Source: an uncultured Oscillospiraceae bacterium (lineage in GTDB: Bacteria > Bacillota > Clostridia > Oscillospirales > JAAYOS01). Taken from it: DNA of 64,000 bases. Numbering within the stretch: position 1 is the stretch's first letter; every line of letters starts with the position of its first letter. The notes beneath the pieces were generated by a model. That model worked only from the letters and a program-made list of their open reading frames with translations. It searched no databases and had not been told where the DNA came from. The stretch lies in the NCBI GenBank assembly GCA_964493515.1, contig CAZBNJ010000001.1:10866-74865 (forward strand), written 5' to 3'. The translations under genes and the position numbers were made by a program. Positions 3,001 to 39,600 of this stretch are shown here, one piece after another.

Positions 3001-6000
3001 TATAGGTGATGTACGGCTCATCCTCAACCGCCAGGTTTCCGAGGCGCTCGTTGAGCGTGCCGGCGTAGATCTTCAGATCGAGGTCGCTGACCGTCTCGCG
3101 CTTGCTGAACACCAGCAGCACCAGCTCGACCTGATCGCTCAGGCCGTTCGACGTGCCGGTAGTAAACGCGTTGTAGCGGTCGGACGCGCCGACGAGTATC
3201 GGGTAGACGATGCTGTCGCCGAGCACCATCTGTCCGAGCGACACCTGGATGGAGGACACGCCCTTCGAGAATGCGTTGAGTGTGGTGCGGTTCGCGTTGA
3301 CATACTTCTCGTCGTCAAGCGCGGTCGCGACCAGGCTGCCCGCGTTGGTCTCGTCCTTGCCGATGTCGACCTGGTAGACGCGGATGTTGCCGGTGTTGAG
3401 ACGCACCGCCTGCATATCCTCGCTGCCGCCCTTCGGCCACAGCCACAGCGTGCCATCGGTCTCGTCGAGACGGAACTCGATGTCGCCGTCCGCCGAGTAG
3501 ATAACGGTGCTGACCGCCGACTCCGGAGCGTTCGCGCCGGTCTCCTGGAAGTAGAGCAGATCCGCCTCGGTGCGGAGCTTGGAGATGAGTCCGTTTTCGC
3601 GCGTGCCGTCGGTGGCGATGAGGTTGCCCGCCTCGTCGACATCGAGGAAGAGCGTGTCACCCGAGCCGTCGAGCTCGGTACGGCGCAGCGCCATACGCTC
3701 GTGATAGGTGATGCTGTCGAGCGTGAGCACGTTCTCTCTGCGCTGGAGCAGTATCTCGTACACCTTCGGGTTGCGGTCGCCCGCCATGCTTGAAACATGC
3801 ACGGTGTATGCGGTCAGCTCGCCCTCGTCCATCGGCACCGAGATGACTATCTGGTGCGCGTAGTCGTTTGCCGAGAACTTGGTCATGCCGGTCGCGTCTT
3901 CGACAAGCTCGGTCCACGGATTCTCGTATCCGTCCTCGTTCTTGCCGTGGTAGAACTCCATCAGCTCATCCTTGTATGTGTCGGTCTCCGGGTCATAGAC
4001 CTGGCGGTAGACCGAGATGAGCGCGGTCTCGGTTATCGTGGTCAGCTCAAGCGTCGCCACCGTCGCGCCGTAAGGCACGTCGAAGGTTATGCTGAGGCTG
4101 GTGGTGTCGCCGTCCTGCTCGGTGTTCGAGATGTAGCGGTGATCCTGGAGCAGCTTCGCGCTCTCGAGATAGCGGTTGCCCGCCAGACGGTTGAAGCGCA
4201 GCTCGTACAGCTGTCCCTGGATGGACGGCGAGTTGGTGCCTATCCACTGCTGGTTCTCCGAACGGACGTAGATCGCCACCGAGCGGTCGCCGACCGAGCC
4301 GACGCCGGGTATGCTGTCCAGACGCACATACGCCGGATCGTTCGCGCCGTTCGCGTCGGATGCGCGGTTGTAGCTCGTGCTGCCGTTTCCGGTGTTCACG
4401 CCGACAGCCGCCTCGTAGTACTCGCTTCGGACCCACAGGTCGACCGAGGTGGTCTCCTCGCCGATGTCGACGCCGAACAGGGTCGGGATGTACTCGCCCT
4501 TGAAGTCGAGCACCGGAGTGCCGTCGTCCTTGGTGATGTAGCGGTACGGCTCGTAGAGCGTCGTGCCGGACATTATCTGCTCGATGACCGAGGTGGCTAT
4601 CAGCCTTGCCATGTTCTCGGCAATGCCTATCGACCTGTCGGTCAGCAGCTCGACCAGCTGCTCGGTCGAGGTCACGCCGCGGAGCTGATAATTGTTCGGA
4701 TCGGCGTCGAGCAGTCTCCACGCGCTGGTAGCGTCGAGCTTGACATACTTCCAGCCGCCGAGCGACGGAGTGTACTTGTCCGCAGCGGTGTCGCGCTCGA
4801 CGATGTACACGAGCTGGTTGTACTCGAGCTTGCTTCCGGTAACGGTCGTCGGGCTGGACGCCTGTCCGCCGACGGTGCGATAGAGCGGGTAGGCGTTCGG
4901 CGCGAGCGTGCTCGGGCTGTTGCCGGCGCTGTACGGATACGCCCAGATGCCGTAGTCATAGCCGAGGATCTCGCCGGTCTCCTCATCCGTGTTCGGGATC
5001 TGGATGAGGTCGCGGTTCTCGGTGTCCGCGTTGCGCATCTCAAGCACATAGCGCTCGCGGGTGCCGTCCTGCGCCACGATGTCGAAGTAGATATACTCGG
5101 TCGCGACAGCCTCGAAGCTCGGATACTTACGGTTGGTATCGTCGCCGGTCGAGTTGTAGTCAAGTATCTTCGCGTTGTAGTCCGTGACCTCCAGCTGGAG
5201 CGTGTAGCCATAGTTCAGCTGGCTTATCGCGCGTCCGGTGCCGGTGAAGGCCTCACGGTAGGTGGTATCCAGTCCGATGCTCGGGTTGAACGCCTGCGGC
5301 ACGTTGCCGTAGATTACGACGGTGCTCGTTGCCGAAGTCGCGGTGACCTCGACCTCGAACGACTGCCTGTACTCCGCGTTCGTCGTGCCGTCGTTCGACA
5401 GCGCCGCCGAGTAGACCTTACGCTCGACCTCGGTTATCTTGTCGGCGGGGATGAGCACCGTGCCGTTGCTCGCCACGATAGCGCCATCCGCTATCTTGAC
5501 CGAGCTTGCGAGCACCTCGGCGCCGTTGTACCTTATGACCGCGCCGTTCTCGTCTATCAGACGGCCTCTCGAGTTGACTATCATGCCGTCGTTCGACTTA
5601 TACGCGTAGTAGTAGCGCAGCAGCTCCGGCTCAATGGCGCCGTACTTGCGCGCGGTCGAGCCATCCGCCAGCTGACGCTCGCGTATGTCGTCCGCGGTGC
5701 GGTAGATGTCCTCCGCCACTCCGCTGTCGTTCAGGAGCTGATACTCCTTGGCGTAGTGCGGATAGCGGCTGTACGCGATGACCTGTCTGACGCCCGCGTC
5801 GGACGACGAGACGATCAGGCGGTACAGCTCGGTGCCCTTCGTGCCGTCCTCCGCCTCGATTCCGACCGAGACGTAGCCGACCAGCTTCTTGATGTTGTTT
5901 ATCGCCTCAATGGCATCCGGATAGCCCTCGACCTTGGCGTAGACGAGCTTGCCGTCCTCGCCGAGCGTGGTCTTGTCAAAGGTCTGCTCGCCGTCCGGAG

Positions 6001-9000
6001 TCTCAACGGTCAGCTTGCCCATGCGCTTGTCGATGACGTTCTCCGGCGAGTAGAGCACCACCGGCGCGTAGTACACGCCGTCTATCTCGATGAAGCTCGA
6101 GGAGTTGACGGTGAAGTCATACGCGGTGTTCGGACGCTCAGCGCCGACGCTTGCGATCGGGGAGCCCTGGCCGGATATGCTGCTGAGCTCGGCGTCGCCG
6201 TCCATCCACTGGACTATCGCCTGACCGTTCTTTATGTAGACCTCGAGGTCGTACACAGCGGTGCGTCCGCTCTCGGCGGTGGCGGTTATGCGTATCATCG
6301 CGCGCGAGTTCTGCTTGTCGCCCATGTCGCCCTGGCCGACCAGTATCTTCGACAGGTCAAGCTCTATCGGCTTATCGGTGCCAAGCTCTATCTCGAACAT
6401 ATCGCTTACTGCGGTTATCGTGTTGCCCGACTGCGCGACGGTGACGCTGCTCGCGCTCACCGGAGCGGTGCCGTAACCGTTCAGCGCGTCCTCGTACGCG
6501 TACACCGCGAGCATCGTATCGCGCAGCGGCTCGTTTATCTGCGGCGCGACCCACAGCGTGAGCGTGCGGTCGTTGCGGTTATTTATCTGCGACGCTATCT
6601 CGCGGCGGATGCCCTCGAGCGCGGTGTACTCGCCGTCCTTGTCCTCTATAGCGTCGAAGCTGACGAGCAGCGTCTCGGCAAACGGAGTGTTGTCCGGCTG
6701 CGCCATGTAGATGTTCAGCTCTGCCACGTCGCTGCGGCGGCGCGCAACGAGCTGTGCCGACGCGGTTATCGGGAACTCGACGGTCGTGACCGTCTCGCCG
6801 TCCACCTCGCGGCTTATCTCGATGCCGTAGCCGACCTCGATCATGACCATCGAGGTCTTGCCAGACGTGCGGTTGAACATCCTGTCGGCGATGCTCGCGA
6901 CGAAGTTTGCGTCGCTCTCGGTCCACTCGCTCCAGACAACGCCCTTCGCGTCCAGACCCTCGTACTTCTCGTTCAGCTTTGCCGCGCTCATGCCTGCGGT
7001 GATGTCGGCGAGCACGCTCTTCGCGTCGGTGTAGTCGGCGACGTAGGTCGTGCCGTTGTAATCGACGGCGAAGTTGTTCGCCAGACGCTGATATGCCGCG
7101 AACAGGTAGTCGTACAGTGCCGCCGCGTCCTCGTTCGTCTCATAGTCTGCCGGCTTGGTCGGCGCCATGATGTACGCCGCGCGAGCGTACAGCGCGTTCT
7201 CACCGAGCACGTTCTCGGCGTCGGCGAGCGTTATGGTCACGTTCAGCGTCTCAGCGTCCATTATATCGCCGGTGTACAGACGGACATCCTGCTCGACCAG
7301 CTCGTACAGCGCGTTCGTCGCGGTGCTCTTGCGCTCGTTCTTCGTGGACTCGAGCGTCGGATAGCTGTCCTCGTCGCCGTAGCTGACAGTCGGCGCGTCG
7401 ATGCCGATGTCGATCTCGACTATCTTCAGCGTGTACTGCTTCTCGGTCGAGTAGTTGTTCTTTGCCGGCTTGACGACTATCTCGGTGTCGGCAAACGTGC
7501 CGGCCGCCGTGACAGCGAAGGTCGCCGTGCGCGCGATCGTCGCGGTCGAGGTCTCGTAGGTGTAGTCCTCGCCGTCGAGGTCGAACTTCACCAGCGCGGA
7601 TGCCTTGTCAGCAAACGCGGTTGCGGTCAGCTCGGTCGCGTTCGTCTTGGGCAGATACGCGGTGTAGACATCCTCCGCGGTCTTGTACGCGGTGACAGTC
7701 TGGTTCTTGCCGTAGGTCACGGTCACATGGTCAAGCTCAGCGTCCTCCGCCGGGTTTATCTTGATGTACTCGGTGCGGGTGCGGAAGTCGCTCTGGCTGT
7801 TCGCCGTGGTGTCGGTAACGACTATCTTCGCGTAGACAACGCTCTCGCCGTCCCACGCGTCCGCGACCGTCTTCTCTATCGCGGCGCTGCCGTACTGCTC
7901 GCTGACCACGTTTGCGGTGTCGAGCGACGCAATGCCGAGCCATGTGTTGTAGTCCGCGCTGTATGCCTTAGCGGCGACGTCGACCGACTTGGTGCCGGTG
8001 ATCGGCTGCTCGACATACGCGACATAGCCGGTGACCTTCGTGCCGTTCGGCAGCTCAAACTCGACGTTCCTGCGTGCGTCAACGGCGGTCGCCATATCCG
8101 CGGCGTTCGCGGCCTTGACCATCGTCAGCGTTGTCACAGCGCGGTTGACTATCACGCTGTACACCGAGACGATGTCCGCGCTCGAGCGCACGACCACATC
8201 GAGTATCGCAAACTCTGCGTACTCGCCGTCGGTGTTCTTGGTAAAGTCGAGGTGGAAGCGCTCGAGCTTGTTGGTCGCGGTCTTCCACGCGTCGGCGTAG
8301 TCCGCCGAGTCGCGGTATTCCTCGCCGAGCGCCTTGAGAGCCGCCGCGTCGAGGCTTGCCGCCTCCTCGCTGTACTCGCGCATGACCGCTATGACCTTCG
8401 CGTGCTGCGACGAGGTCTCGGTGGTCAGGTAGAAGCCGTGAGCACCCTTCTCGATGCCGACCTCCTCCGGGAAGACGTACGGTGCATTCGTCGCGGTCTC
8501 GCTGGAGACGGTGAGCGTCTTGTTCGGCTCGTCGTCGAAGGTCGCAACGCCCTTTATCGTCTCCTTGTGCTCGATGGTCACATGGTTATCCACAAGCGTG
8601 GTGTCGTTGTCCATCTTCACAACATCGACGTAGTAGCGCGCGCTCAGGTCGGTAGCTCCCGGCACGTTTCCGCGTACCACTATCACGAAGCGCTTCGAGT
8701 CCGCGCCCTCCGGTATCTCGACCTCAAAGCCGTCGGTCGGGTCGATCTTGTCGCCGACAGGCTCGCCGTTCGCGCCCATCTCGTACAGCTCAACGACCGC
8801 ATTGTCGTCGTAAGCCTTGATGTCGAGTATCGGGTTCGCCGCCGGATACTTCTCGGCGTCGGTGGTGGCGTTCTCAACGGTCGGATAGTTCGGTATCTTC
8901 GCGGTGTAGACGGTGTAGGTCTTGCCGCCGTAAGTCGCGCTGCCGGTGCGTCCCTCGACCGCGACACGGTCGGTCACGACCTTGTCGGTGTGCGTATCGG

Positions 9001-12000
9001 TGCCCGTTCCGGCGATGCCGCCCTTGTCGACAGCGGTCGCGGTCAGCGTCTCGATGTCGAGGTAGAGCTTGTTCATCGTCAGGTTGTACGCCGCGCGCAT
9101 GGTGTTGTCGGTCGAGCGGACGAAGGCGTAGGTCTTGCCGCCGTTCTCGAGCGTGATGTTCTTCAGCGTGTCGGTGTGACGCTTGAGCGTCAGGTTCTGC
9201 CAGGTGGTGCGGTCGTTGGTCAGGACCTCGCTGTGGCTGAGCGCTATCTGCGCGCCCGGCGCGACGGTCGTGCCGCGGACATCCGCCTTCTCGACGGTGG
9301 ACGGATAGTAGATGACAAAGTTGTGCGTCTCCACGCCGTTCTCGTCGAATATCTGGGTCGCCTCACGCTGCTGCGCGCCGTTGAACGGGTCGTTGTATAT
9401 CAGCTCGAACTTCTCGAGCTTGACATCGGCGCCGCGGCGGAACGCGTAGACGTAGTACTCGGCGGTGTACGGCACCGTCGCGTAGGTTCCGTCGCCCAGG
9501 GCGATGCGCGCATACGAGCGGACGCTTATGACGTATATCGCCATCTGCGTGTTGCCCTCGATGCGGTGCGTCTCGTTTATCGTGGTGGTGTAGGTCGACT
9601 GGAAGCCGTTTTCAACGCTCACCAGCTTATCCATCTCCGCCTTGCCGACGGTGCCGGTGGCGAAGCTGGACGCCGACCACAGCGTCGCGCTGTTCGACGA
9701 TGCCTCAAACAGGGCGGTCAGGTCGAACGAATCGTCCGCCGACTCCGGTCCGAGCACTATCTCGTAGTAGCGCACCGGCTCGCCCTCAATGGTGTAGTTC
9801 TGCTCAACGCCGTCAACGATCAGCCAGTGCTGCTCGACCGTCTGCGGGCCGACGCCGGTCGCGTCGTCCATCGTCATGGTCTTGAGCGTCAGGTCGACCA
9901 CCGAGATATTGAGTGCATAGCTCGCCTTGTTGCTGCCGTCCGACGAGGTCACGTCTATCCTGGTGTTTATCGTGCCGTTGTTGACAAGGCTCACATCCAG
10001 CTCGAGCGTCGTCTCGCCGATGTAGCTCTCGGTCTTGCCCATCGCGGTCACGTCGACAGTCGCGTACGGATGCTGGCTCTTCGCGTCGATCCACGCGGTC
10101 ACAGCGGTGGACGGTATCGCCGCCGCGTAGCCGGTCGCGGTCTTGTAGACGGTCGCCGTGCCCTCCTTGCCGAGGTCGTCGATGTAGCGGATGACCGGCA
10201 GGACGATGTTCGCGTTTGCGTCCGCCTTGTAGATGCGCAGCGTCGCCTGACGCGGCTCCGCGACCGAGTTCAGGTGCGCGCGCACCAGTATCGCGAGCTC
10301 GGTGTAGGTCACGCCGTACTCGTCGGTGTGGTCGCGTCTGAGCGTCAGTGCGTCGTCGCTCCAGATGTAGTCGTGGCTTGCGTTCGGACGCGCCGGAGCG
10401 GTGTATGCCGCGTTGACCAGCGCCTTCTTGCTGACCGCGGTGATGACCGTGTTTGCGGTCGCGGCGGTCGGGTCGCTCTCAAGCGCGTCGTAGCGGTCGA
10501 TGCCCGGCGCGATGCCGTCGACACGCTGTATCGCCTCGACATCGTCGACGGTGACCGACAGGATGCGGTCGTCCTCACGGTAGATGACCACCGAGTAGTT
10601 GCCCTTCGTGCCGTCCATCGCGGTCACGCCGAGCGAGTAGCGGGTCTCGTCCGTCTCGAGCAGCTCGTCGACAGCGGTCGCGCGCGCACGGGTATGCGCT
10701 ATCGTCTTGCCGTCGGCGGTGTGGGTCGGAGTGCCGTCCTCACGCTTGAAGTCGAGGTAGCTCAGGTCGCTCGGGCCGATAAGCTCGATGTCGACTATCT
10801 CAACATATTCGGGCAGGAACACGGCATACTCGCCGTCCAGTCCGGCCGCCGGGTACAGCTCCGCGACCTTGGTCTGCGGCTCGCCGTCCTTGTCAATGTA
10901 GTGGACTATGACCGACTGCATACCGGTCTCGCTGTTCAGGCGATAGATACGCAGATACTTGGTGGTGAAGTACATCGGCAGCATCCAGTCGAGGTCATCC
11001 GAACCGACCTTTATCTCGAACTCGCTGCGCTCGTCGAAGCGGCGCGCTATCAGGTTGCCCTCGGCGTCGAGTATCTCCTCGTACATCGGCGCGAGCTTCT
11101 GGGTCGGACGATAGATGCGGCTGCCGTCGCCGGCGGTCGGATCCGCCGCCTTGACGTCCAGGTCGCTGACCGACAGGTGCGTGTACGGGCTGTGCGCCGC
11201 GTCGTTGCCGTGCATCGCGGTCTGTATCTCAAGCGCCGCGTAGCTCGACTCGACCTCGCCGAAGTCCTTGCCCGCTATCGCGTAGTAGACCACGCGGTCT
11301 ACGCCGTCGATGTTGTCGATGTAGAACTGCGGCTTGCCGGCGTTCGCCGTCAGCACGTCGAAGTCGTCAACTATCAGTCGGTCAAGCTCGAGGTTGACCA
11401 CCGCAAACTCGAGCGGATAGTGCGCGTGTGCGCTGCCGTCCGACGACTCGACGGTTATCATGGCGGTGCCGAGGTTGCGGACCTCCTTGTCCTTCTGGGT
11501 CGCGCTGCCCTGGGTCATCTTCGCCGCGTTGTAGCTGTCGTCGGCGTTCTTCACGTCGATGCCGACCTTAGCCGCGATACGGTTCGCAACGGCGGTCAGG
11601 TCGCCGTATATCGCTGCCGCGACATCGCCGCTGGTGAGCACGATGCGGTACGCGGTCGCGCCCTCGTCGTTTATGAACTGCTCGGCGCGGACGACCATCT
11701 CCTGGCCGTTGAGCGAGTAAGTGAAGTAGAGATCCTTCAGCGTCACGTCGTTGTTGGTCAGGTAGACGTTGAGTATCGAGGTACGGAACTTGGTCGGCTC
11801 CGCGTCCTCTGCGCGCGACTTTATCTCGAAGCGGGTCAGCTCGCCGTCGGCAAGGCTCTGCGAGAATATCGACGCACGGCGGAGGTCGACGCCCACTCTC
11901 GGGTTCGCCGCCGACTCGTTTGCCTGGCCTATCGTGACCATGGCGACCGAGTCGGTCGTCTCAACGATTATCGTCGAGGCGCGGAGGTTGGTGTCCGGAA

Positions 12001-15000
12001 TGTAGACGTTGTAGACGTCGCCGTTGTGGTCGGCGCTTACGCGTCCAACGCCCTCGTACTTGAAGCGATCGGCGACATTGTCCGCCTTCTCGTTTATCGC
12101 CATGTCGACGCTGTCGCCCTCGCTGCCCTCAACGAGTATGCGGCGCAGCGAATCGTCGTCGTTTATGCGAGTCAGAACGAGGGTGTACTCCTCGACATAC
12201 TTGCGGACACGGACTTCCTCGCCCGCCGCGTTGTAAGTCGTGCCGTAGGTTATGACGTATATCGGCAGGTACGCCACCTTGAAGGAGACGTTCGCCGCCT
12301 GCTCGCCCATCGTCGAGAGATGCGGGAACTTGGCGAGCTGCGCGCCGTCTATGGTCATCCAGGTCAGCTCATCGAGCACCAGCGTGTAGCGTCCGTCCTT
12401 GGTGGCGGTCGCAACCGCGTTCTCGCTGTTCTGCGTGAACACCGACTGACCTATCAGGCTGCCGCTGCGCTGTACCGGCGTGCGGATACCGTCGCTGCCG
12501 TTGGTGGTGGTGTTCGACGCCGCCTTGTCGTAGATGTACGAGTCGAAGCCGAGTATCACGGTGTTCGACTTGTTCACCGGGTCGATGCTTATCTCGACGT
12601 ACTTGTCCTCGTTGCCGATGAGCGTCGAGTAGTAGATGTAGGAGTTTCCGGCGGTGTCGAGCACCGGCTTGCCGCTCTCAACGACCGTCTGCGGCAGCAG
12701 CTCGGTGAAGCTGCTGGCTTCCTTGGCCCTCAGCGTGCCCTCGTACTTGCCGTTCGCGAAGCTGACTATCTCGGTCTCGCCGCTCGCAACGCGCACGCTC
12801 TCCAGTCCGGTGGCGAAGTTGCCGCTCTGGACGACCACGACGTACTCGGTCGCGGCGGTCGTGTCACCGTTCTCCGGGGTCAGGCGGACGAGATAGCGGT
12901 TCTGCGCGCCGGTGTCGGCGGCGAGCGTGTAGCTGTACCTCGCGCCGTTCTGGGTGCCCGCGACCGGGACTGTGCTGCCGTCTGCGGCGTAGACGAACAC
13001 CTCCGCCGTCGAGCCAAGTCCGGTCTCGAGCGTCATCGCAAGGTTCGCCGACACCTTGCCGACATAGGTGAATACGTTGCCGGTAACGGTGCGCGTCCAG
13101 CTGCCCGCAATATCGAGGCTCTTCAGCTCGGTCTGCGAGTAGCGGCGGTTTATCGTGATGTTGACGACCTTCTGCGTCGTGTCATCCGACGAACGCACGC
13201 CGGGCACGAGAGTCAGTCTGTCGCCGCTCATCGCAAACGCTCTCTCGTAGAAGCCCACGCCGCCGACGATGCGGTTCAGCTCGTTCAGATAGCCCACCGT
13301 CGCCGACTCGTCCGCCGAGCGCAGGAACACCTTTATCGACTCGGCGTCGCGGTCGACGGTTATCGAATAGTTGCCGTTTGCGTCGGGCCTCAGCGTCTGC
13401 TGGGTCTCGAGGCCGCGGTCGATTATGACCTCGGTGAGAGCGGTGTTCGCGCTCTGCTTTGCCACCTCGAGGGTGTAGGTCGTGTAGCCGGACGCCGAGT
13501 AGACGGTCACGGTGAACTTATCCTGTCCGTTCGCGCTGAGCGGGACATTCTTGAAGTCGTAGATGCGTGCGACGGTCGCGCCGCCGGCATCCTTGTTCTC
13601 GGATATGGTCGTGGCGGCGATGGTCTTGCCGTTCTGCGTGAGCAGTATGCTGTGTGTGCCGCGCTGGGTGGTCAGACGGATGTCGGTCGCGGTCGCGCCG
13701 CTCGCGACAAACTGCTTATACACGCCGAACTCGTTGAGCGACGTCACCTTGCCGCCGACCGCGACCTCGCCGAGGGTGTGGAGCGCCGCAGCGTCACGAC
13801 GGACGGTTATGCTGGTGTTGGATACGGTGCCAAATCCGTTGCCCGAGTAAGTGTAGATACGGATCGGGATGGTCACCGACGGACGGGTCGCGCTCAGGTT
13901 CAGCGTTATATCGCGCAGGTCGCTTGCAAAGACCGGATCGTTGCTGCCGATCTGGACCTTCGCGACCGCGCTGGTGGCGCTTATCTCAAGGCGTATCTTC
14001 TCCGCCGACGCGGGCACGGTGTAGTAGTAGTTCGCAGCCGACGCGAGCGTCACGCCGCCGACGCTGACCGACGCGATGTGCGCCGCCGCGCGGACGATGT
14101 ACAGCGTGTACTTCTCCGCCTGACCCGCCGCGATGAGTGCCGCGAGCGCGTCCATATACTGCTTGCTGCCCGACTCGATGCCGCTGCCGCTTATCGCCTG
14201 CCAGTTCGCGTTGTCGCTGCGCTGAGCGTCCGCGCTGACGACGTAGAACTCAACGCGGGTCACGCCGGTGTTCAGCGCGCCGACGCCGCCGGTTCCGACC
14301 GCTATCTTCTGCGTGTCGCCGAACTCGAAGCCCTCGGTGACCGCCTCGCTGTAAACGACATACTGCTTCGAGTTGTTGCGCTCGAGCGTGAAGTACGCGT
14401 CGCTCGTCGAATTCCTCAGCGATGCGAAGTATGCCTGCTTGCCGTCGCCAAGGCTTATCAGCTCCGCGTGTGCGGCGGTCTCAGCCGAAGCGAGCGCGTC
14501 GCGCACGATTATTCCGCTGATGCCGGTGTCGGTAGCCGAGTAGTAGTCGAGGACTATCCTCAGCTCGGAGTAGTACTTCGCGTTCGCCTTGAAGGTCTCG
14601 ATGCGCGAGTTGTAAGTCGTCTCGTCTATCTCGCCCGCGGCGTATGCCTCTTCGATCGCCTTCAGCTCTTCAACGCCGAACGCGCTCATTATCGTTGCGA
14701 TGTAGACATTGCGTCCGATCTTCGGCACCGGCAGGTTCTCGAACACTCCGCCGCCGCGCTTGGAGTCGAGCGCCGCGTTCTCGGTGCTCTCCGAGTAGAT
14801 GGTCACGACGTCGAGGTCGCTCTGCGGCGTGATGGTGACGCTCACCGGCTCGCGGGTGCGGACTTCCTTGTAGTACTCGCCCGCGACGTTGTAGTAGTAG
14901 GTCCAGCCGTTGGTTATGACCTGCTCCTCGAACTTCGCTACCGCGTCCGGATCGGTGCTGGTCGGATCAAAGAAGCCCTGCGGCGCGTACGAGTCGATAT

Positions 15001-30600: not shown

Positions 30601-33600
30601 AGATGTACCACTGCTCGTCTATCGAGGTGGGATTCTCCGGTGTTCCGTACTCGGCGAGGTGGTCGTCGATGTTCTGATCCGCCTCGGCAAGAGCCGCGAT
30701 GAGCGTGAGATAGCGGTAGTAGCCGCCTGCGGTCGCCGCGATCTGCTCCCACTGAGCGTCGCTGATGCTCGGCGTCCAGGTCCAGGTCTTGGCCTCCACC
30801 ATCAGATCCGCCGCCGACGAGCCTTCAAGTATCGGAGCGATGACGTCGTCGTACAGCTTGTAGTTGTGCGTCAGGCTGCCGCTGCTCGTCAGCCACGCGC
30901 CGTCGCCGCTCATGTAGCTTGCCAGAGCCTGAACGGCTGCCGTGTACTCGAGATACGCGGTGTAGCACGGATCGGACGAGCCGACGGCGATGACGTTGCC
31001 CATATCGTCGAAGTGGTTGTTGTGTCCGTTGAACTCCGCGGTGGTGTTGAAGTTCTCGAGCGCCTCGTCGACAGCCTCGGTAAGCTCAAGATACTTCGCG
31101 TATTTCGTCTCGTAGCCGAGGTCGTAGAGGTAGCCCTCGTAGGACTGCGTGGCGCGGGTCGCCATGTAGTCGTCAAGCGTCTGCTGCGCGGCGTTGACCG
31201 CTGCCTGGAGCGCCTGCTGCTGGGTCACCTGCTCCTGCGTTATCGGCGGAGTCAGCGAATCCTTGAAGTTCTGGAGCGTCTCCTTGGCAAGGGTCAGCGC
31301 ATCGCGGAGCGCGAGCAGCTTGCCGTAGTAGACGGCGGTCGCGGCTATCGTGTTCGCGTCGGCGATTCCGCCGAATATCGCGCCCGAGCCGGTGAACATC
31401 TGCTTTGCGTAGTCGTCGCGCGCCTCAACTGCCGCCTCGACAGCCGCCTTCAGGCGACCGAACTCGGCAACGAGCGCCTGGCTCGCCGCAGCTTCCTTCA
31501 TGCTGAACATCGGGTGGTCGTACTCGAGCATGACCTCTGTGCCCGAGCTGTCCGCCATGCCCTTGTACACGCTCACGATGGTGGACAGGCTTCTCGGCGT
31601 CCAGCGGTTCGCGGCGTCTCCGAGGTCGCGCAGCAGCAGGTTGATGCCTGCCTCGAAGTCGACCTTCAGCGGAACGTCGGGCGGGAATATCTGCTCGGAG
31701 ATGTTTATCGTCTGTCCCTTGCTTATCGTGATGATGCTCGGCTCGACCGAGACCTGCTGCTGACCGACCATGACCAGCTTGTTCGAGTTCTGGCGGCTGA
31801 CATTGCCGAGCTGGCCGTACTCGTTCTGACCGGCGCTCCACATATAGCCGTCTTCCTTGATGCTTATCAGGTGTCCGTCGCCGGCGTTGACGCCGATGAC
31901 GCTGGTCGTGCCGCCGAGGTCGGTCGACTTGTACACGACCTTCTGCGGGTTGGAGTAGGTGGACAGCGGACGCTCGTAGGTGTCGCCCAGCGCGAGCTTG
32001 CCGCCCTCGTTCGAGCCCCAGGTGTACAGGTTGTACACGACAGCCGGCGTGGTGTGTACCTCGTCGCTGTATTCGGTGTGAGTCTCGGTGGTGGTGACTA
32101 TCCTGCTGCCGTCGCTGTAAGTGCGCTCGGTGGTGGTGACGACCGTGCGCTCGGTCACCTCGGTGGTCCAGGTGTGTTCGGTCGCGACGCTCTGTCCGTC
32201 TATCTCCTCGTTTACGATATAGACCTTATTCTCGATGCGGCGCTCGAGCTTGTTGCCAAGCGCATCCACGCCAACTATCTCGGTTATCGTGTACTCAACG
32301 TTCTTGCGCTCGACGTCCACCACGCCCTCGGCTATCATCACGCTCGGCAGCGTGAACTTTCTGACCGTGGTCACGCGGTTCATGTCGACCCAGCCGCCGG
32401 TCTCGAGCTGGCGGTGTCCGGTGACGGTGGATATCGTCGTCTCCACCTCGACGTCGTCGAAGTACTGATAGGTCTTGGTCGCGCCGCTGCGATACTCGTT
32501 GCGCTCGTCAATGACCTTTATGGTGTTCTCGGTGGTCTTGGACGTCTCGACTATCGTGCCGACGCCGTTGTTCTGCGCGGGATCCTTTTTCAGCGCAGCC
32601 TCGCTGTCCGCGAACTCCGCAAACTCCGGAATATCCGCGCGCACGAAGCTTATCGCCGACACATCCGCCGGGTTGTTCTCGGTCACGTTGGACACGACCT
32701 TGCCCTCGCCGTCGGTGGTCACGACGTTGGTCGTACCGCCAAGGCCGTAGCTTCTGACCACGCTGTAATTGGCAACATCCTCGGTCTCCTTGGCTATCGC
32801 GGCGCTGAATCGGCTGCCCGCCGCGACGCTCACGACGTCGGTGAACGGCCTCATTATCGCCTTGCCCGCCGCGTCGACGTTTCCGCTTGCGCGGAGCACC
32901 GGCGACATTATCGACAGGTTGCCCGCCTCCTCGTTGGTGCCGAGCTGTCCGGAGTAGTTGTCGCCGAGCGCGTACAGAACCGTCTTGGCCTTTTCGCCGG
33001 TGTACATCGACTTGACGTCGTTCTTCAGGTTCTTCTTTATCATCAGGATGTGCTGGCTGTCGATGTCTATCATCTCGCCCGCAATGTACTGGCTCTCCAC
33101 CTGGTACACATCCGAGTGACCCGCTATCGCGACGATGTTCTGGTTGTTGGTCGAGTCGCCCTGCTTGCGGATGTCCGGGCTGGTAGCCGAGGTCGGGAGC
33201 TGCCAGACGGTGCCCGAGCCCTTGAGCGCGTAGCCGTGCGCAACTTCGATGGCGCGCTGCAGCAGGCTCAGCGGGGTCGGCGTCGAGCCGTAGCCGTCGG
33301 TCTGCTTGACTGTGTAGTCGGTGGTGTCCAGCTCGACCATGAAGTTCTCGCCCGCGCCAAACGCGTACACCGTGCCGAGCGAAGTGAGAACGTAGCTCGA
33401 ACGGTCGAGCGCGTAGATGCTGACCGCCTTGACGCCATCCTCGGCAACGCCGTCGCCCAGGGTCGCGACCAGAGTCGGTGTGCGTATCTCCTTGATGTGG
33501 TCGTACTCCTCGCCAAGTCCGAGCTGGCCGAACTCGTTGGAGCCCCAAGCCCAGACCGCGCCCATGTTGTCCAGCGCGAGAGCGTGGTTCGCACCCGCGG

Positions 33601-36600
33601 CTATCTTCACGATATAGCGGTCGCTCATGCCCTGCTGCGACGCGAACGCCGCGTTGAAGTCGATGGTCGTCGGGTTGGTGTTGTAGCGGCGAGTCGTGCC
33701 GTCGCCCAGCTTGCCGTAGTATGTCACGCCGTCCTCGCCTATCCACGAGTTCGATCCCCAGGCGATGACCTCACCCGCGATGTTGAGCGCGAGGGTAAAG
33801 CCGTCGCCCGCCGCGACCTGCGGCAGCGCCACGAACTTCTGCTGGATGTACTTGTTGCCCTCTTCGTCGCCCTCCTCAATCGTGCCGACGCGGTCCTTGC
33901 CGAGCACGTCGACTATCGCGACGCCGCTGCGCGAGATGTTGTTCTGGCCGTCGGACGGCTCGTAGGTCACGATTATGCGCGACGTGCCGAAGCTGTCCTC
34001 CGAATCGCCGGTCAGCTCTATCTTAACATCCGAATAGGTGGATATCTTGTTGCGCAGGTTGTCCTCGGTGTAGCTGACGGTCTCCTTGCGCTTGCCGCCG
34101 TCCATGATGCCGCTGAGGTGGAAGATGTCCTCATCCAGCGACTCATAGGTCAGCTCAAGCGTCTTTTCCTCGTCGACCTGCTTGTCGACCGAGAAGGAGT
34201 ACATATACTTTGCCACGAACGAGCTGGACTCGATGCCCTCATCGAACTCCTCGTAGCCGGTCTTTATCTTCTCCTGGAAGTTGTAGTTCTCGACCTCGGT
34301 GCGGACGGTCTGCTCAAGCTGTCCGAGCGAGTCGCGGATCTCCTCGGTGAACACCTCGAATATCGCGATGTGCTCCTCGTCCACGACGGTCGGACGGCTC
34401 TGCGAGACCTCGCGCTTGTACGCCGAGTTCGGGTTCGCCGCGTCTACGGTCTCGGAGATGTGTCCGCTGTGCTTCAGATACTCGAAGTTGCCCAGCTGAC
34501 CGTACTCGTTGTTGCCCCAGGTGTAGACAATACCGTTCGAGTCGAACGACGCCGAGTGGTTGCCGCCCGCCGCGACGCCCTGGAGGTAGACTCCGTCGTC
34601 GAGCAGCGACACGACCTCGGTTCCGCTGATGAAGCCGTTCTCGTCGTACACGTCGTACGCCGCCTCGAATATCTCGATCTTGTCCGCACGGGTGGTATCG
34701 GTGTTTCTGGTCGTACCGCCCTTGTAATACTCGTTCGAGCCCCAAGTCCAGACCTGATAGGTACGGCTTGCGACCTCGGCAAGTCCTCTGCGGTAGTCGT
34801 ACTCGACGTCCATCGTGACCGCGAGCACCTGGACCTTGCCGCCGACGTAGCCGCCTATCGAGATGGAGGTCACGCCCTGGAGCGCGCTCTGGTTCGAGCC
34901 GGCGTCGGCGCCGACCTGTACCTTGACCGGGCGTATCGCGAAGTTGTGCGCCATCAGCGCCTTCTCAAGCTCGCCGGTGTAGTTCTTGGTCTCCTCCTCA
35001 TAGGCACGGCTGCCAAGCTCCTGCACCCAGACGTCGGCAGCGAGCTGGCTGGAGCTGTTGTCGCCCCACATATAGGCTTCCTTGCCCTCGGTGATTATCG
35101 CGAAGTTGTAGCCGCGTCCGATTATGCGGTTGATGTTGTCGATGGATTCGCTCTCGATCGGGCGGTTCGAGCTGTCCACCGTCTCCGCCGAGTAGTCCAC
35201 CTGCACCCAGTCGCCGACGCTGTCCACGCCGATGCCCTCGGCAAGCAGATGATCGGCGAGCATGTTGTTCGGCATCAGACCCGCGCCGAGTTCGCCGTGG
35301 GTGTTGGAGCCGACCGTCCAGACCGTGCCGTCGGTGAGCAGCACCGCGGTGGTGCCGACGGTGGCGGCGATGTCCATGACGTTGGATATCTTGATGTCCG
35401 GGCTGAAGCCGTTCATCTCGGTCGGACGATAGAGCGGGTTGCCGTCCGGCGTGTTGGTGGAAGAGACCACCGTCGCTATCTTGCGCGCGTTGCTCTCGTA
35501 GATGTTCGATGCCTCGATCTTCTCCTCAACGGTTATCGGAGTCTTGGGCACCCAGTTGCCCTCAAAGTCGTACTCGCCGTAGAGGGCAAGCTCGCCGTAC
35601 TCGGACACATAGCCGCGTCCAAGCTGGCCATACTGGTTGTCGCCCCACGCAAACACGCGTCCGTCGCGGGTCAGTGCAAGCGAGTAGTTCGAGCCGGCTG
35701 CGACAGTTATGAAGTCGAGCGTCGTGCCGTTTGCGTCGCGGATGTCCAGACGCACCGGATAGCTGGAGCGCGGCAGCACGTTCGGGTCGTAGCCGAGCTG
35801 ACCGTAGGTGTTGTCGCCCCACGCGTACAGCTGACCGCGGTTGTCAACGCCGAGCATATGGTTGTCTCCCGCCGCTATCTGGATTATGTTCTTGAACTCG
35901 CGGAGCTGCGGCTTGCTTGCCAGCGGCGCGGAGTTGTAGTACGCAAGCTGTATCGGCGTGGTTATCAGCGTCTGCGCGCTGCCGAAGCCGAGCTTGCCCG
36001 CGATGACTCTGTCGTCGCCGCCGTACAGCGGATTGTCGTACTCGTCGCGATAGGTGTTGTCGCCCCACGCCCAGACGGTACCGTCCTTCTTCAGCGCGGT
36101 GGAGGTGTTCTTTCCGAGCGTCATCTGCGGATAGGTAACGCCGTCGGTGACTATAACACGGGTGGACAGGATAACGCCGGTGGCGGTGTTCTCCGCAAGT
36201 ATGCGGGTCTCGCCCTCGCGGACAGCCGTGATGACCGCTGCGGTCGAGTCCTGTCTATCCGGCGCGACTTCGACTATCGAGTCGTCCAGCGACTTCCAGG
36301 TGTAGTTGTTCGCGCTCTGCGTCTGACCGTAGACCATGAGCGGGTTGCCGTCGTCGTCTATCTTCAGACGGCGCTGGGTCACGGTCTGGAGGTTCATGGT
36401 AACGAGCGATTCGAGGTCCGGCTGTCCGCCGCCGACCACGACCGGGTAGGACGTGCTCTGCGTCTGACCGTTGCCAAGCTCGCCGTACAGGTTCGAGCCC
36501 CAGGCGTATGTGATGCCCGTCTCGGCGTGACCGACGATGTGGCTGCGATCGTTCGAGCCGCTCGACTGTCCGAGGCGCACCATGCCGGTGAGATAGTCGT

Positions 36601-39600
36601 TTCCGATGTATCCACGGTAGACGAGATCGGGTATCTCCTGCGTATTGCTGTTGGAGCGGTTGCCGAGTATGCCGCCCGCGTTCTCCGCCGACTGGTTCGT
36701 GCCGTTCGAGTAGATGTGGCCGTCCTCGGTTATCATGGCGGTGTAGTGGTCACCCGCCCAGACACTGACGACGTTCGAGTTGATGCCGCTCGCCTCGAAG
36801 GTGTGCGTCGAAACAAGTCCGGTGATGAACTTGGCGGCGGAATCTATCGTCTCCGCCTTCTCGCGCATGAGCATGAGCATCGCCTGGATGTTTATGCCCT
36901 GCGAGTTCTTCTCGTAGGTGCTTACAACCTCGGTGAAGGTCTCCTTCGCGGTGGTAGCGCTGTCGTACGCGTTCTTGAACAGTCCGTTCGTTATCGCCGC
37001 CTTGACCTCCTCAAGCTGCTTGGTGGTGTTCGACAGCGACACACCGTGGCTGTCGTACTTCGCCATAGCGCTGCTGGCGGCGTTCTTGATGCTTTCCACG
37101 TCCGCCTTCGCCTGCGCCAGATGTGCGGCGAGGTAGATGCCGTAGTCGTCCTGCGGCTTCTTGTTGGTCGTCTCCGGGTCGGTAACGGTCAGGTAGACGC
37201 CGGTGAGCAGCGTCGCGTCCTCAATGGCGCGCTTCGCCACACGGACAGCCTTTTCGGCGTCCGCGACATTCTTCTTTAGCTGCGCTATCGCTGCGTCGCT
37301 CGCGTCCTCATCCGCCTCGTCGAGTGCCTTCAGCGCAGCCTCGAGCGCACGGTTCGCGTTGGTCAGGTCAAGCGCCAGACCGCCCTTGCCGTCAACATTT
37401 GCGCCGTTTATCCTGCGGTTCTCCTCGTTATAGGCGTTCACCAGCGCGACGCGCAGATCCTCCGCCGCCGCCGTGACAAGCACGCCTTCCGCCTTCTGTG
37501 CATCCTCCGCGCGCTTGACCGCCGCCTGCTTGCCCGCCTGCGAGCAGAGCATATTCGCAATGGTGCCGAGCGGGTTCGCGGTCATCTCATAGCTGCCGTC
37601 GCTGGACGGGACAGCCTCGTAGTTGCCGACTATCGTGACGCTCGACGTGCTCGACGGATCGACGACCGCCATGTACAGCGGACTCCACGCGTCGTGCTTG
37701 GTCTTGTAATCCTGCTCGAGTGCCGCTATCGCGTCGGCGATCTCGGTGTCGGTGGTCGTGTCGGTCACGGTGATGCCGATGATGTTGCCGAGCGCGGTCT
37801 GCGCCGCAGCGACAACCGCCGCCAGCTTCGCAAGCTCGGTCTCGTCCTTGCTGTCTAGTCCGGCGTAGTCGGTGTATGCCTTCTGCGCGTCGGCAAGCGT
37901 GGTCTGCGCGGCAAGCGCCGACTGCCACTTGGAGTACGCGTTGTATGCCGCAAGACCCGGCTCGATGGTCGGCGTGAACTGCGCCATCAGCGCCGTCTGG
38001 TATACGGTGGTGGTGTTCGGGTTCTTGCCGTCGGCGGTGGAGACGGTGCCGTCCTTGTTCGGCAGTCCGACGCCCTCGACGGTGGAGACGGTCTCCGCAG
38101 ACACGCCGTAGAAGGTCTTGAAGCGGTTCTGCCACAGCGTCGCGGCATCCTGAAGCGCCTTCTGCGAGTTCAGCAGGGTGGTGAGTATCTGCGCGAACAG
38201 CTCGTCGGTGTCCTCGTTCGGCTTGCTGCCGTGCATCAGCTCATATTCCTCGATGTACTTGGTGTACTTGTCGAAGTTCTCCTTGTAGACCTCGCCCGCG
38301 CTGTACGCAGCCGCACCGAGCGCCGCGATGTCCGACGTCTCCTTCTTTATGCGGTTCTGCGCCGCTGCAAGTGCGGTACGCGCCGCGGCAAGCGTGTTCT
38401 GCGCGGTGGTCGACTGTCCGCTGACGCTGACATACCTGTCATACAGCGACTTGAGCGTGGCCTTGTCGCCCGCCGCGTTGTACGCGAAGGTCTGATTCTC
38501 GTTTGCTGCGCCCTCGGCGACCGGATACTCGCCAAGCAGCTTCTGCCAATTCGCGTAGTGCTGCTGTGCGCTGGCAAGCAGTCCGGGCACGGTGTCGCCG
38601 TACTCGTCGACGACAGTCTCGTCGATTATCTGGTGATAGTTGACCAGAACCTCGGCGCGCAGCCGTTCAAGCTCTTTTATCTTGTCCTCGAGCGTCTCCT
38701 GCGCGACCTCTATCCAGTCGGGCTGCAGCTCGAACGAGGTCACGACCTCAGCCACGGTCATCTGCTCGGCAATCGCGCTTCTGATGTCCGCCTCGGTCGC
38801 GGCTATCTCCGCCGCAGTGAGACCCTGCTTTACGGCGGCGTCGGCCTTCCACGCGTCCAGCATATCCTGGCTGAACTTGACCGGATCCCTTCCGTCCATG
38901 GTCACACTCATCAGCGTGCGCAGCTCGCTTGCGATGTCCGCTTCTGTCGGCGGCTCCTGCTTTATCTCGGTGCCGAACTTCGCGCCCTCGGCGCGCAGCT
39001 CCCTGTACAGGGCGTTGTCCGCCTTGCTCGACGTAGTAGACGCCGCCGGATCGTAGCCCGCGCCCATGACGCTCATTATCGTGGTGCGCCACTTGCTCGT
39101 CACGTCGCGCTCCCAGTTCGCCGCGATGTCATTACGGCCGTAAGCGTATGCGACCTCTGCGGCCTCGAACAGAGCAGTCTTCAGCTCGTTCGACGTCACA
39201 TACATCGTGTTATAGGTGCTTGCCGCAGTCGCCGCGTTGTAGTTGTTCTTCTCGAGCCAGTCGCTCACCGCGTTGCTTGCCGTGAGCATCTCGGTGTAAG
39301 TCTCATACGCCGCCTGGAACTCCGCGGGCGCGTCGTCGGCCTTCATCTTGTCAACGACGTTCTCGTTCCACGCCTTCTCCTTGGTCGCAAAGTTCGCCGC
39401 AGCGTCGGCATAGACGAGCTGCACTATCACCGAGTAGTCGGTGCCGTCCGGCTTCTTGCCCGTCTCGATGCCCGGGAACGCGGCCTTTATCTGGTCAAGC
39501 TCGCTCTTCGCGGCGTTGTACTCGTTCCAGTATCCGGTCGCAAGCTCCATCGCCAGAGTTATCTGCGACAGACTGATCTCCCACGCCTCCTGCGCGGTGG

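What the first reader, a model, noticed from the sequence alone, without database searches (positions are those of the whole stretch)
3797..37279. An 11,160-codon antisense shadow ORF caused by near-total absence of TCA/CTA/TTA sense codons
The plus-strand ORFs 221-3793, 3797-37279, 38231-41806, 42290-46105, 46316-47002, 47081-50260, 51560-55297 and 55532-62929 all share one phase, exactly codon-aligned antisense to the real gene. That phase is closed only where the sense strand uses TCA (3791, 41804, 46103, 47000, 50258, 51449, 62927) or CTA (37277, 37856, 55295). TTA is never used. That is ten codons out of about 21,333, with an 11,161-codon run free of all three. This is more selective than simple GC3 bias, because A-ending ATA, GGA, GCA, GAA and GTA are all used, ATA very often. 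It is a strong annotation trap: gene callers could emit an 11,160-aa protein on the wrong strand. It is also a codon-usage oddity in its own right.
Basis: seen in the sequence. Interest (0 to 1): 0.55.

Follow-up and report, generated by a model that had tools for sequence, protein, structure and literature searches.

The report
Mirror-image ORF opposite a giant gene
The 11,160-codon plus-strand reading frame is a non-coding mirror image of a giant surface-protein gene (at least 21,333 codons) on the other strand, left open because that gene almost never uses the three codons that read as stops backwards; it is a record-sized example of a well-known artefact, not a new gene.

Summary
Observation confirmed in every detail. 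The whole 64-kb window is one stop-free minus-strand frame of 21,333 codons. The codon-aligned plus frame has 10 stops, exactly at 7 TCA and 3 CTA sense codons, with no TTA. It contains an 11,160-aa ORF at 3797-37279.

The minus strand is the real gene. It has about 27 RCC1-like propeller matches (Pfam E=0), then about 8,100 aa of orphan sequence that looks beta-sandwich-like. Its GC3 is 0.865. The plus frame has no Pfam hit, no homolog among 5.8 billion proteins, mirrored codon-position GC (0.87/0.43/0.58) and a product pI of 10.2.

The depletion exceeds GC3 expectation: 10 stops observed against 129-136 under composition nulls, or about 84 at the rate of GC3-matched genes. It is not specific to the three antisense-stop codons. 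CCA, CAA and CGA (0/0/7), AAA (3) and GGG (1) are depleted as much or more.

Given the gene's own codon usage, a longest open antisense run of about 5,600 codons is expected. The observed 11,161 is a mild tail (P 0.007-0.03).

A distant relative shows the same thing: a 4,358-aa shadow over a 4,257-aa gene. This is a known kind of artefact at extreme size. I could not test whether the codon restriction is genome-wide or gene-specific, because the source genome was not retrievable.

The parts
1..64000 (-). Real gene: one uninterrupted reading frame of 21,333 codons, open at both window ends, so the gene is longer than 64 kb
   Evidence: 0 stops in this frame. Pfam RCC1/RLD E=0. GC1/2/3 = 0.57/0.44/0.865. 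Nc 30.6.
24250..64000 (-). RCC1-like propeller region of the sense protein (sense residues 0 to about 13,250; about 27 PF25390 matches, one Big_2)
   Evidence: Internal repeats are only about 25-45% identical.
1..24249 (-). Orphan C-terminal-side region of the sense protein (about 8,100 aa). It has no Pfam family above threshold. It is probably an array of divergent cadherin-like beta-sandwich domains.
   Evidence: PF12733 at E 0.0075 and 0.32 only. Only about 10 distant homologs exist among 1.84 billion representatives. Same codon-position GC as the RCC1 part.
3797..37279 (+). The 11,160-codon shadow ORF (non-coding mirror frame)
   Evidence: No Pfam hit over 10,000 aa. No homolog for 24401-28900. 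GC1/2/3 = 0.868/0.433/0.576. Product has V+R+L+A = 57%, Met 0.1%, Trp 0, pI 10.2.
221..3793 (+). Shadow ORF, 1,190 aa, same phase
38231..41806 (+). Shadow ORF, 1,191 aa, same phase
42290..46105 (+). Shadow ORF, 1,271 aa, same phase
46316..47002 (+). Shadow ORF, 228 aa, same phase
47081..50260 (+). Shadow ORF, 1,059 aa, same phase
51560..55297 (+). Shadow ORF, 1,245 aa, same phase
55532..62929 (+). Shadow ORF, 2,465 aa, same phase
3791..3793 (-). Sense TCA codon (plus-strand TGA) that closes the frame just before the big shadow ORF
37277..37279 (-). Sense CTA codon (plus-strand TAG) that ends the big shadow ORF. The other eight closing codons are at 37856 (CTA), 41804, 46103, 47000, 50258, 51449 (TCA), 55295 (CTA) and 62927 (TCA).

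Best explanation
The plus-strand ORF 3797-37279 is not a gene. It is the codon-aligned reverse-complement image ('shadow ORF') of a giant minus-strand gene that fills the whole window (at least 21,333 codons). That gene encodes an extracellular-type protein: about 13,000 aa of RCC1-like beta-propellers followed by about 8,000 aa of orphan, probably beta-sandwich, sequence. In the codon-aligned antisense frame, a stop can arise only where the sense gene uses TTA, CTA or TCA. This gene is written in a very narrow codon dialect (GC3 0.865; effective number of codons 30.6 against 41 expected from GC3). In that dialect all Y-N-A codons, AAA, GGG and TGT are practically unused, while ATA, GGA and GCA are tolerated. 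Antisense stops therefore occur about once per 2,100 codons. Over 21,333 codons a multi-thousand-codon open mirror frame is then the expected outcome. The enormous size of the shadow reflects the enormous size of the sense gene plus a modest amount of luck in where the ten stops fell. Shown: which strand codes, the codon counts, the statistics, and the lack of any coding signal on the plus strand. Inferred (about 60% likely): the codon dialect belongs to the organism's lineage (tRNA supply plus GC pressure; probably a GC-rich Clostridia/Oscillospiraceae-like bacterium) and is not a special adaptation of this gene.
For: Strand assignment. The minus frame has 0 stops in 64 kb, the plus frame 10. 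The minus translation hits RCC1-like domain PF25390 at E=0, 8e-185 and 1.9e-207. Its orphan part has real, distant homologs (E down to 9e-61). The plus translation has no Pfam family over 10,000 aa and no homolog among 5.8e9 proteins for the 1,500 aa opposite the RCC1 region. Codon-position GC is 0.57/0.44/0.865 on minus, in both the RCC1 and orphan parts, and the mirror 0.87/0.43/0.58 on plus. The plus product is 57% V/R/L/A with pI 10.2, against a sense pI of 4.5. That is the Arg-rich alkaline signature of spurious ORFs described for GC-rich genomes (PMC2516542). No promoter-like excess lies upstream of 3797, and there are no tRNA or Rfam features.

Cause. Stops sit exactly at the 7 TCA and 3 CTA codons. 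Control Y-N-A codons are equally or more depleted (CCA 0, CAA 0, CGA 7). Sense codon usage is the same inside and outside the shadow span and uniform along the gene.

Expected length. Codon permutation and synonymous resampling give a median longest run of 5,560-5,760 codons, P(>=5,000) = 0.66 and P(>=11,161) = 0.007-0.03.

Generality. In 101 RCC1 genes from other GC-rich genomes the antisense frame is often open over most or all of the gene. In L121, a distant relative of the orphan region, a 4,257-codon gene has 0 TTA/CTA/TCA and a 4,358-aa shadow. L122 and L001 also have 0.

Lineage dialect. L118 is an RCC1 contig from a Clostridia MAG. It shows the same avoidance of GGG (0/242), CAA (0/70), AAA (4/111), CCA (1/64, both ORFs) and CGA (0), with ATA at 30% of Ile, but at GC3 0.55.

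Literature. Frame-aligned antisense stops equal sense CTA/TTA/TCA, and codon bias lengthens such ORFs (PMC11266595). Long frame -1 ORFs are attributed primarily to codon usage by Merino 1994 and Silke 1997, as cited in PMC3454372. High GC lengthens antisense ORFs.
Against: The 11,161-codon gap is about twice the expected longest run (P 0.007-0.03). By the permutation criterion used for candidate overlapping genes, it would be nominally significant before correction for the many windows scanned. The genome-wide part of the explanation is untested, because no other gene of the source genome could be obtained. On the related contig L121, the two largest genes (10,175 and 4,257 aa) have a stronger bias (GC3 0.89-0.90, AAA 1-2% of Lys). 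Their 1,872-aa and 3,472-aa neighbours have GC3 0.81-0.84 and AAA about 20% of Lys. Rare codons also decline weakly from 5' to 3' in the window. Both observations would fit a gene-specific, length-related component. The homolog search on the plus translation covered only 1,500 of 11,160 aa.
Confidence: 0.94

Rival explanations
1. The codon restriction, and hence the giant shadow, is specific to this gene. Selection for translational accuracy and processivity over more than 21,000 codons purges slowly or ambiguously decoded codons more efficiently than in ordinary genes. The shadow is still non-coding, but its cause is gene length and not genomic bias.
For: Nc is 30.6 against 41 expected from GC3. 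Depletion is 8- to 500-fold relative to GC3-matched genes of other genomes. There is a weak but significant 5'-to-3' decline of rare codons (2.9% to 1.7%, Spearman p = 7e-4), as models of nonsense-error cost predict (my knowledge: Eyre-Walker 1996; Gilchrist and Wagner 2006). In L121 the two largest genes are more biased than their two smaller neighbours.
Against: L118 shows the same dialect at a very different GC3, which suggests a lineage trait. However, L118 also carries only RCC1 genes. In L002 and L119, large RCC1 genes are not more biased than neighbouring ordinary genes. The 5'-to-3' trend is small and confounded with the change from RCC1 to orphan domains. No gene from the same genome was available.
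Confidence: 0.2
2. The plus-strand ORF, or part of it, is a genuine antisense overlapping gene, and its stop codons are held down by selection on the plus-frame product.
For: The gap in antisense stops is longer than codon permutation predicts (P = 0.007). Translated frame -1 overlapping genes of 957 and 1,536 nt have been claimed in GC-rich Pseudomonas.
Against: There is no Pfam hit or homolog. Codon-position GC is mirrored, and the composition lacks Trp and almost lacks Met, Phe, Asn and Lys. Sense codon usage inside the span is indistinguishable from outside. Control codons with no antisense-stop meaning are depleted even more. There are no promoter-like signals. P rises to 0.03 when the stop count is allowed to vary, and the window was selected for being extreme. 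An 11,160-aa overlapping protein would be without precedent.
Confidence: 0.015
3. Simple GC3 (mutational) bias alone explains the open antisense frame. No extra codon selectivity is needed.
For: GC3 is 0.865 and A3 only 5.9%. Open antisense frames are common in GC-rich genes (PMC2516542).
Against: Composition-only nulls predict 129-136 antisense stops against 10 observed. GC3-matched real genes carry 3.9 per 1000 against 0.47 here, giving a mean open run of 255 codons against 2,133. ATA, GGA and GCA are over-used 1.7- to 5.7-fold while Y-N-A codons are used at 0-0.19 of expectation.
Confidence: 0.03
4. The plus strand carries the real gene(s) and the minus-strand frame is the shadow.
For: Both frames are very open. 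Over window 1-24,249 the plus frame has only one stop.
Against: The minus frame has 0 stops in 64 kb, RCC1 domains at E=0, and homologs in the orphan part. The GC3 > GC1 > GC2 pattern and 70% purine at codon position 1 are on minus only.
Confidence: 0.005

Closest known systems
Shadow or spurious antisense ORFs in GC-rich prokaryotic genomes (the 'ORF overprediction problem'; long frame -1 ORFs explained by codon bias: Merino 1994 and Silke 1997 as cited in PMC3454372; Veloso 2005 as cited in HaloLex/Pfeiffer 2008, PMC2516542)
   Same: The ORF is codon-aligned antisense to a real gene. It is closed only by sense TTA/CTA/TCA and lengthened by GC-rich codon usage. Its translation is Arg-rich and alkaline with no homologs.
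   Different: Size. The longest spurious ORF quoted for Halobacterium is about 1,300 codons, while this one is 11,160, because the sense gene is at least 21,333 codons. The codon restriction also goes well beyond GC3 (Nc 30.6) and coexists with heavy ATA use.
Claimed functional antisense overlapping genes olg1 and olg2 in Pseudomonas aeruginosa (Kreitmeier et al., bioRxiv 10.1101/2021.02.09.430400 / PMC8850804)
   Same: Same frame relation (directly antisense, frame -1), a GC-rich host gene, and an ORF longer than codon permutation predicts.
   Different: Those ORFs are 957-1,536 nt and are supported by Ribo-seq, mass spectrometry and conservation tests. No such evidence is available here, the composition and control-codon tests argue against coding, and the ORF is 33.5 kb.
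Oscillospiraceae (Clostridia) RCC1-type giant genes from gut metagenomes (West-Roberts et al. 2023, bioRxiv 10.1101/2023.11.21.568195). This is the closest match for the sense gene.
   Same: A giant ORF of more than 10,000 aa dominated by diversified RCC1 propeller repeats. No hydrophobic run of 17 or more residues lies in the window. The GC-rich, Clostridia-like codon dialect is shared with a Clostridia MAG RCC1 contig.
   Different: That class is described as having a single repeating domain along the entire length. Here the last 8,100 aa in the window lack RCC1 and are near-orphan. Taxonomy of the window is not established.
Near-unused NNA codons in GC-rich bacteria (TTA/bldA in Streptomyces; unassigned codons in Micrococcus luteus). 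From my own knowledge, not tested here.
   Same: TTA is absent and other A-ending codons are nearly absent in a GC-rich coding sequence, plausibly linked to the tRNA repertoire.
   Different: ATA is also rare or unassigned in those organisms but makes up 46% of Ile codons here. GGG is common in those organisms but occurs 1 time in 1,861 Gly codons here. No tRNA set is available for this genome.

Membership tests
Shadow (spurious) antisense ORF | Lies codon-aligned antisense within a gene that has independent coding evidence | tested here: met
   Same phase. The sense strand has RCC1 at E=0 and homologs.
Shadow (spurious) antisense ORF | No homologs or domains of its own | tested here: met
   No Pfam family over 10,000 aa. 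No hit among 5.8e9 proteins for 1,500 aa. The other 9,660 aa were not searched for homologs.
Shadow (spurious) antisense ORF | Composition is the mirror of the sense gene (GC1 high, GC3 intermediate; Arg/Val/Leu/Ala-rich, alkaline) | tested here: met
   GC 0.868/0.433/0.576, pI 10.2, Met 0.1%, Trp 0.
Shadow (spurious) antisense ORF | Length explicable from the sense gene's codon usage | tested here: inconclusive
   The median expected longest run is about 5,600 codons and 66% of simulations exceed 5,000. The observed 11,161 has P = 0.007-0.03. That is compatible with chance after selection of an extreme, but it is in the tail.
Shadow (spurious) antisense ORF | Not translated | not testable with these tools
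   Needs strand-specific RNA-seq, Ribo-seq or proteomics from the source organism.
Functional antisense overlapping gene | Stop depletion specific to the overlapping frame, beyond the mother gene's codon usage | tested here: not met
   Control codons CCA, CAA and CGA are depleted more than TCA, CTA and TTA relative to GC3-matched genes. Codon usage inside the span equals that outside.
Functional antisense overlapping gene | ORF conserved and under purifying selection in relatives | not testable with these tools
   No ortholog closer than about 30-45% identity was found.
Oscillospiraceae RCC1-type giant gene (sense strand) | Predicted protein of more than 10,000 aa | tested here: met
   At least 21,333 aa within the window, open at both ends.
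Oscillospiraceae RCC1-type giant gene (sense strand) | RCC1 repeats as the single repeating domain along the entire length | tested here: not met
   RCC1/RLD covers only sense residues 0 to about 13,250. The remaining 8,100 aa have no RCC1.
Oscillospiraceae RCC1-type giant gene (sense strand) | Encoded in an Oscillospiraceae genome | not testable with these tools
   The source was not found in any collection. The only indirect hint is the codon dialect shared with a 'Clostridia bacterium' MAG contig.

The most novel reading that the evidence does not exclude
The near-elimination of Y-N-A, AAA and GGG codons is not the organism's general usage. It is a length-driven adaptation of this gene: across more than 21,000 codons, even rare ribosome stalls, frameshifts or drop-offs become costly, so selection has polished codon choice far beyond the genome average. 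The 5'-to-3' decline in rare codons would be its footprint, and the giant shadow ORF a by-product. The more radical reading, that part of the 11,160-codon mirror frame is itself translated, is not formally excluded, but I put it at 2% or less.
Probability: 0.2. Interest if true: 0.5.

Novelty: new member of a known kind. Interest (0 to 1): 0.2.

Why it matters
There is a practical point. On a contig that ends inside this gene, any tool that needs stops at both ends reports only wrong-strand ORFs of up to 11,160 aa and misses the true gene, as the ORF lister did here. Databases could therefore acquire very large bogus Arg/Val/Leu-rich 'proteins' from GC-rich giant genes. There is also a conceptual point. 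The case shows that permutation-type tests for overlapping genes can give nominally significant results (P about 0.007) for what is almost certainly a by-product of codon usage, so control codons (CCA, CAA, CGA) should be part of such tests. The more interesting biology lies in the sense strand. It is a gene of more than 64 kb with an extremely narrow codon dialect and an 8,100-aa stretch with almost no relatives. If the source genome shows the codon restriction to be gene-specific, that would bear on how very long ORFs are translated reliably.

Tried and rejected
1. Finding the source genome, to compare genome-wide codon usage and tRNA genes. All of these came back empty:
- protein-pattern scan of genome contigs;
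- exact 51-mer in viral and metagenome contigs;
- megablast of 25 kb against plasmids and phages;
- viral scan with the C-terminal 1,200 aa.

The second genome-contig scan used a recurrent 23-mer (DGTVWAWG motif). None of those loci had the window's codon dialect. They served instead as a GC3-matched comparator set.

2. Exact look-up of seven shadow-ORF products among 15 billion proteins. None was present, but the true protein has no close match in the 5.8-billion-cluster protein search either (best hit 46% identity over 7% of the query). The result therefore says nothing about whether gene callers fall into the trap. The 11,160-aa product exceeded the input limit.

4. Iterative profile search for a repeated domain in the orphan region gave only marginal self-hits.

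5. Single-sequence AlphaFold2 of sense residues 16,040-16,420 gave mean pLDDT 33.8, which is unusable, so I ran no fold search.

6. Relatives L001, L002, L119 and L120 are from lineages with different codon usage (ATA about 0, or AT-rich). They cannot stand in for the source genome.

7. Considered and rejected: alternative genetic code (there is no in-frame TGA, TAG or TAA at all on the sense strand); several same-frame genes instead of one (impossible without stops); a repeat-driven assembly artefact (internal repeats are only 25-45% identical and the last 8,100 aa have none).

Full report
OBSERVATION

The window (64,000 nt, 62.6% GC) contains one reading frame on the minus strand with no stop codon at all (21,333 codons). 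The plus-strand frame that is codon-aligned with it has 10 stops. The other four frames have 289-956. Because the true gene runs off both ends of the window, the list does not include it.

The longest run free of all three is 11,161 codons.

WHICH STRAND CODES

The minus translation matches the RCC1-like domain PF25390 at E = 0, 8e-185 and 1.9e-207 in three consecutive 5,000-aa pieces. That amounts to about 27 matched stretches, plus many RCC1/RCC1_2 repeats and one Big_2 domain. RCC1 signal ends near sense residue 13,250.

The remaining 8,100 aa or so (window 1-24,249) have no Pfam family above threshold. There are only weak cadherin-like beta-sandwich hits (PF12733, E 0.0075 and 0.32). This region still has genuine distant homologs:
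- P0121 at 28% identity in the 5.8-billion-cluster search;
- ten proteins, with E down to 9e-61, in the exhaustive search of 1.84 billion representatives.

Codon-position GC is 0.57/0.44/0.86-0.87 in both the RCC1 and the orphan parts, with 70% purine at codon position 1. That is the normal signature of a gene in a GC-rich genome.

The plus ORF shows the mirror image (0.868/0.433/0.576). Its product is 57% Val+Arg+Leu+Ala, with 0.1% Met and no Trp, and has pI 10.2 against 4.5 for the sense protein. It has no Pfam family over 10,000 aa. The 1,500 aa opposite a dense RCC1 stretch have no homolog in the protein search. No promoter-like excess precedes 3797, and there are no tRNA or Rfam features anywhere in the window. 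The plus ORFs are shadows.

HOW UNUSUAL THE DEPLETION IS, AND WHETHER IT IS SPECIFIC

Two composition nulls predict 136 and 129 antisense-stop codons, against 10 observed. The first uses position-specific base frequencies. The second keeps the amino-acid sequence and codon box and draws the third base from global frequencies.

As an empirical control I used 101 RCC1-motif genes from other genomes, brought in by a genome scan. The 28 genes with GC3 0.83-0.90 carry 3.9 antisense-stop codons per 1000, against 0.47 here. That rate would give about 84 in this window (Poisson P = 2.5e-24).

It is not, however, a property of those three codons.
- All six Y-N-A sense codons are nearly absent: TTA 0, CTA 3, TCA 7, CCA 0, CAA 0, CGA 7.
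- So are AAA (3/733), GGG (1/1861) and TGT (0/10).
- ATA (495, 46% of Ile), GGA (282) and GCA (234) are over-used relative to composition.

Relative to the GC3-matched genes:
- the controls CCA+CAA+CGA are depleted about 40-fold;
- GGG is depleted about 500-fold;
- the antisense-stop codons are depleted only about 8-fold;
- ATA is 23-fold enriched.

The effective number of codons is 30.6, against 41 expected from GC3. The open antisense frame is thus a side effect of a very narrow codon dialect. Nothing suggests selection acting on the antisense frame itself.

IS 11,160 CODONS MORE THAN THE CODON USAGE PREDICTS?

I placed 10 stops at random, which is equivalent to codon permutation in this frame. 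I also resampled synonymous codons from the gene's own usage. Both give a median longest open run of 5,560-5,760 codons. 66% of simulations exceed 5,000. P(>=11,161) is 0.007 with a fixed count and 0.03 with a Poisson count. Allowing for the weak positional gradient of rare codons changes this little.

Sense codon usage inside the shadow span is indistinguishable from outside (summed chi-square 41.6 on 28 df; only Thr differs at P < 0.01). Other very rare codons are spread evenly, with 25 of 56 inside the span. A shadow of several thousand codons was therefore expected. The actual one is about twice that. That is a mild tail for a feature chosen because it was extreme.

GENERALITY

Many of the comparator genes have an antisense frame open over most or all of their length. 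Among the few distant relatives of the orphan region, L121 is instructive. It is a 95-kb ENA contig carrying consecutive genes of 10,175, 4,257, 1,872 and 3,472 aa. The 4,257-codon gene has zero TTA/CTA/TCA. The antisense ORF over it (4,358 aa) is longer than the gene itself, yet the record's gene caller annotated the true strand. L122 and L001 also have zero such codons.

The literature describes the mechanism explicitly.
- Frame-aligned antisense stops exist only where the sense ORF has CTA, TTA or TCA, and codon bias against them lengthens such ORFs (PMC11266595).
- Long frame -1 ORFs were attributed primarily to codon usage by Merino 1994 and Silke 1997, as cited in PMC3454372.
- GC-rich genomes suffer 'ORF overprediction', with spurious, alkaline ORFs of up to about 1,300 codons (PMC2516542).
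- The term 'shadow ORF' and the permutation tests are in Kreitmeier et al..

CAUSE OF THE DIALECT: GENOMIC OR GENE-SPECIFIC?

The source genome was not retrievable from any collection. Only indirect evidence is available.

For a lineage trait:
- L118 is an RCC1 contig from an NCBI 'Clostridia bacterium' MAG. It shows the same avoidance of GGG (0/242), CAA (0/70), AAA (4/111), CCA and CGA, with ATA at 30% of Ile. Its GC3 is only 0.55, and TCA is common there.
- This suggests a lineage dialect onto which high GC3 adds the loss of TCA, CTA and TTA. West-Roberts et al. describe RCC1-type giant genes in gut Oscillospiraceae, which fits.

For a gene-specific component:
- In L121 the two largest genes are more biased than their smaller neighbours.
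- In the window, rare codons decline from 2.9% to 1.7% from 5' to 3' (Spearman p = 7e-4).

I put about 60% on the lineage explanation and about 20% on a substantial length-driven component.

VERDICT

The finding is real and correctly interpreted. It is an extreme instance of a known artefact and not a new biological entity. Its size follows from the size of the sense gene. It is worth recording as an annotation hazard, and as a caution for overlapping-gene statistics. The sense gene is the more interesting object: more than 64 kb, a very narrow codon dialect with 46% ATA at GC3 0.865, and 8,100 near-orphan residues.

Noticed in passing
window 1-64000 (-): The entire window lies inside one gene of at least 21,333 codons, open at both ends. 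That places it among the largest bacterial ORFs described. It resembles the Oscillospiraceae RCC1-type giant genes of West-Roberts et al. 2023, but is not RCC1 along its whole length.
   Followed up: partly
window 1-24249 (-): About 8,100 aa have no Pfam family above threshold and no internal repeats detectable by BLAST. By eye, recurring '...Y.L.V.R'-type domain ends and weak PF12733 hits suggest an array of very divergent cadherin-like beta-sandwich domains. Only about 10 distant homologs exist among 1.84 billion representatives. Single-sequence AlphaFold2 failed (pLDDT 33.8).
   Followed up: partly
window 1-64000 (-), codon usage: The codon dialect is unusual. ATA makes up 46% of Ile codons and ATT only 4%, at GC3 0.865. 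GGG occurs once in 1,861 Gly codons, CAA 0/585, CCA 0/636, AAA 3/733. Nc is 30.6 against 41 expected. GC3-matched genes of other phyla have GGG at 25.6 per 1000 and ATA at 1.0 per 1000. The same dialect at GC3 0.55 appears in L118 (Clostridia MAG GCA_017406685.1).
   Followed up: partly
window 1-64000 (-): Rare codons decline weakly but significantly from 5' to 3' along the gene. Codons with RSCU<0.2 fall from 2.9% to 1.7%, and those with RSCU<0.7 from 13.2% to 10.2% (Spearman p = 7e-4 and 1e-4). Nine of the ten antisense-stop codons lie in the 5' 42% of the window. This may reflect rising nonsense-error cost along a very long ORF, or simply the change of domain type.
   Followed up: partly
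window 1529-1624 (-): The protein has only 10 Cys in 21,333 residues. Three of them cluster in a CPGC(x27)C motif ('YYCPGCQRWIPSEEF...HVGCSS'), which may be a small metal-binding or disulfide element.
   Followed up: no
window 350-1480 (-); L121 10001-11050: A conserved module of about 375 aa is shared at 31-40% identity with a handful of proteins. In L121 it forms the N-terminus of a 4,257-aa cadherin-like protein that directly follows, and overlaps by 50 nt, a 10,175-aa gene. The window's single ORF may therefore correspond to two adjacent genes elsewhere, through fusion or split.
   Followed up: no
L121 9881-22957 (-): In this distantly related giant-gene cluster, a 4,358-aa antisense shadow ORF is longer than the real 4,257-aa gene it mirrors. 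A second shadow of 1,715 aa lies over the 1,872-aa neighbour. The record's gene calls are on the true strand.
   Followed up: yes
L119 10001-27698: An AT-rich (about 30% GC) ENA contig carries three consecutive large genes: RCC1 of 2,565 aa, Big_2/cadherin-like/Peptidase_M23 of 2,498 aa, and RCC1 of 5,056 aa. This RCC1 plus cadherin-like combination echoes the window's architecture, but split across genes and in a very different codon regime.
   Followed up: no
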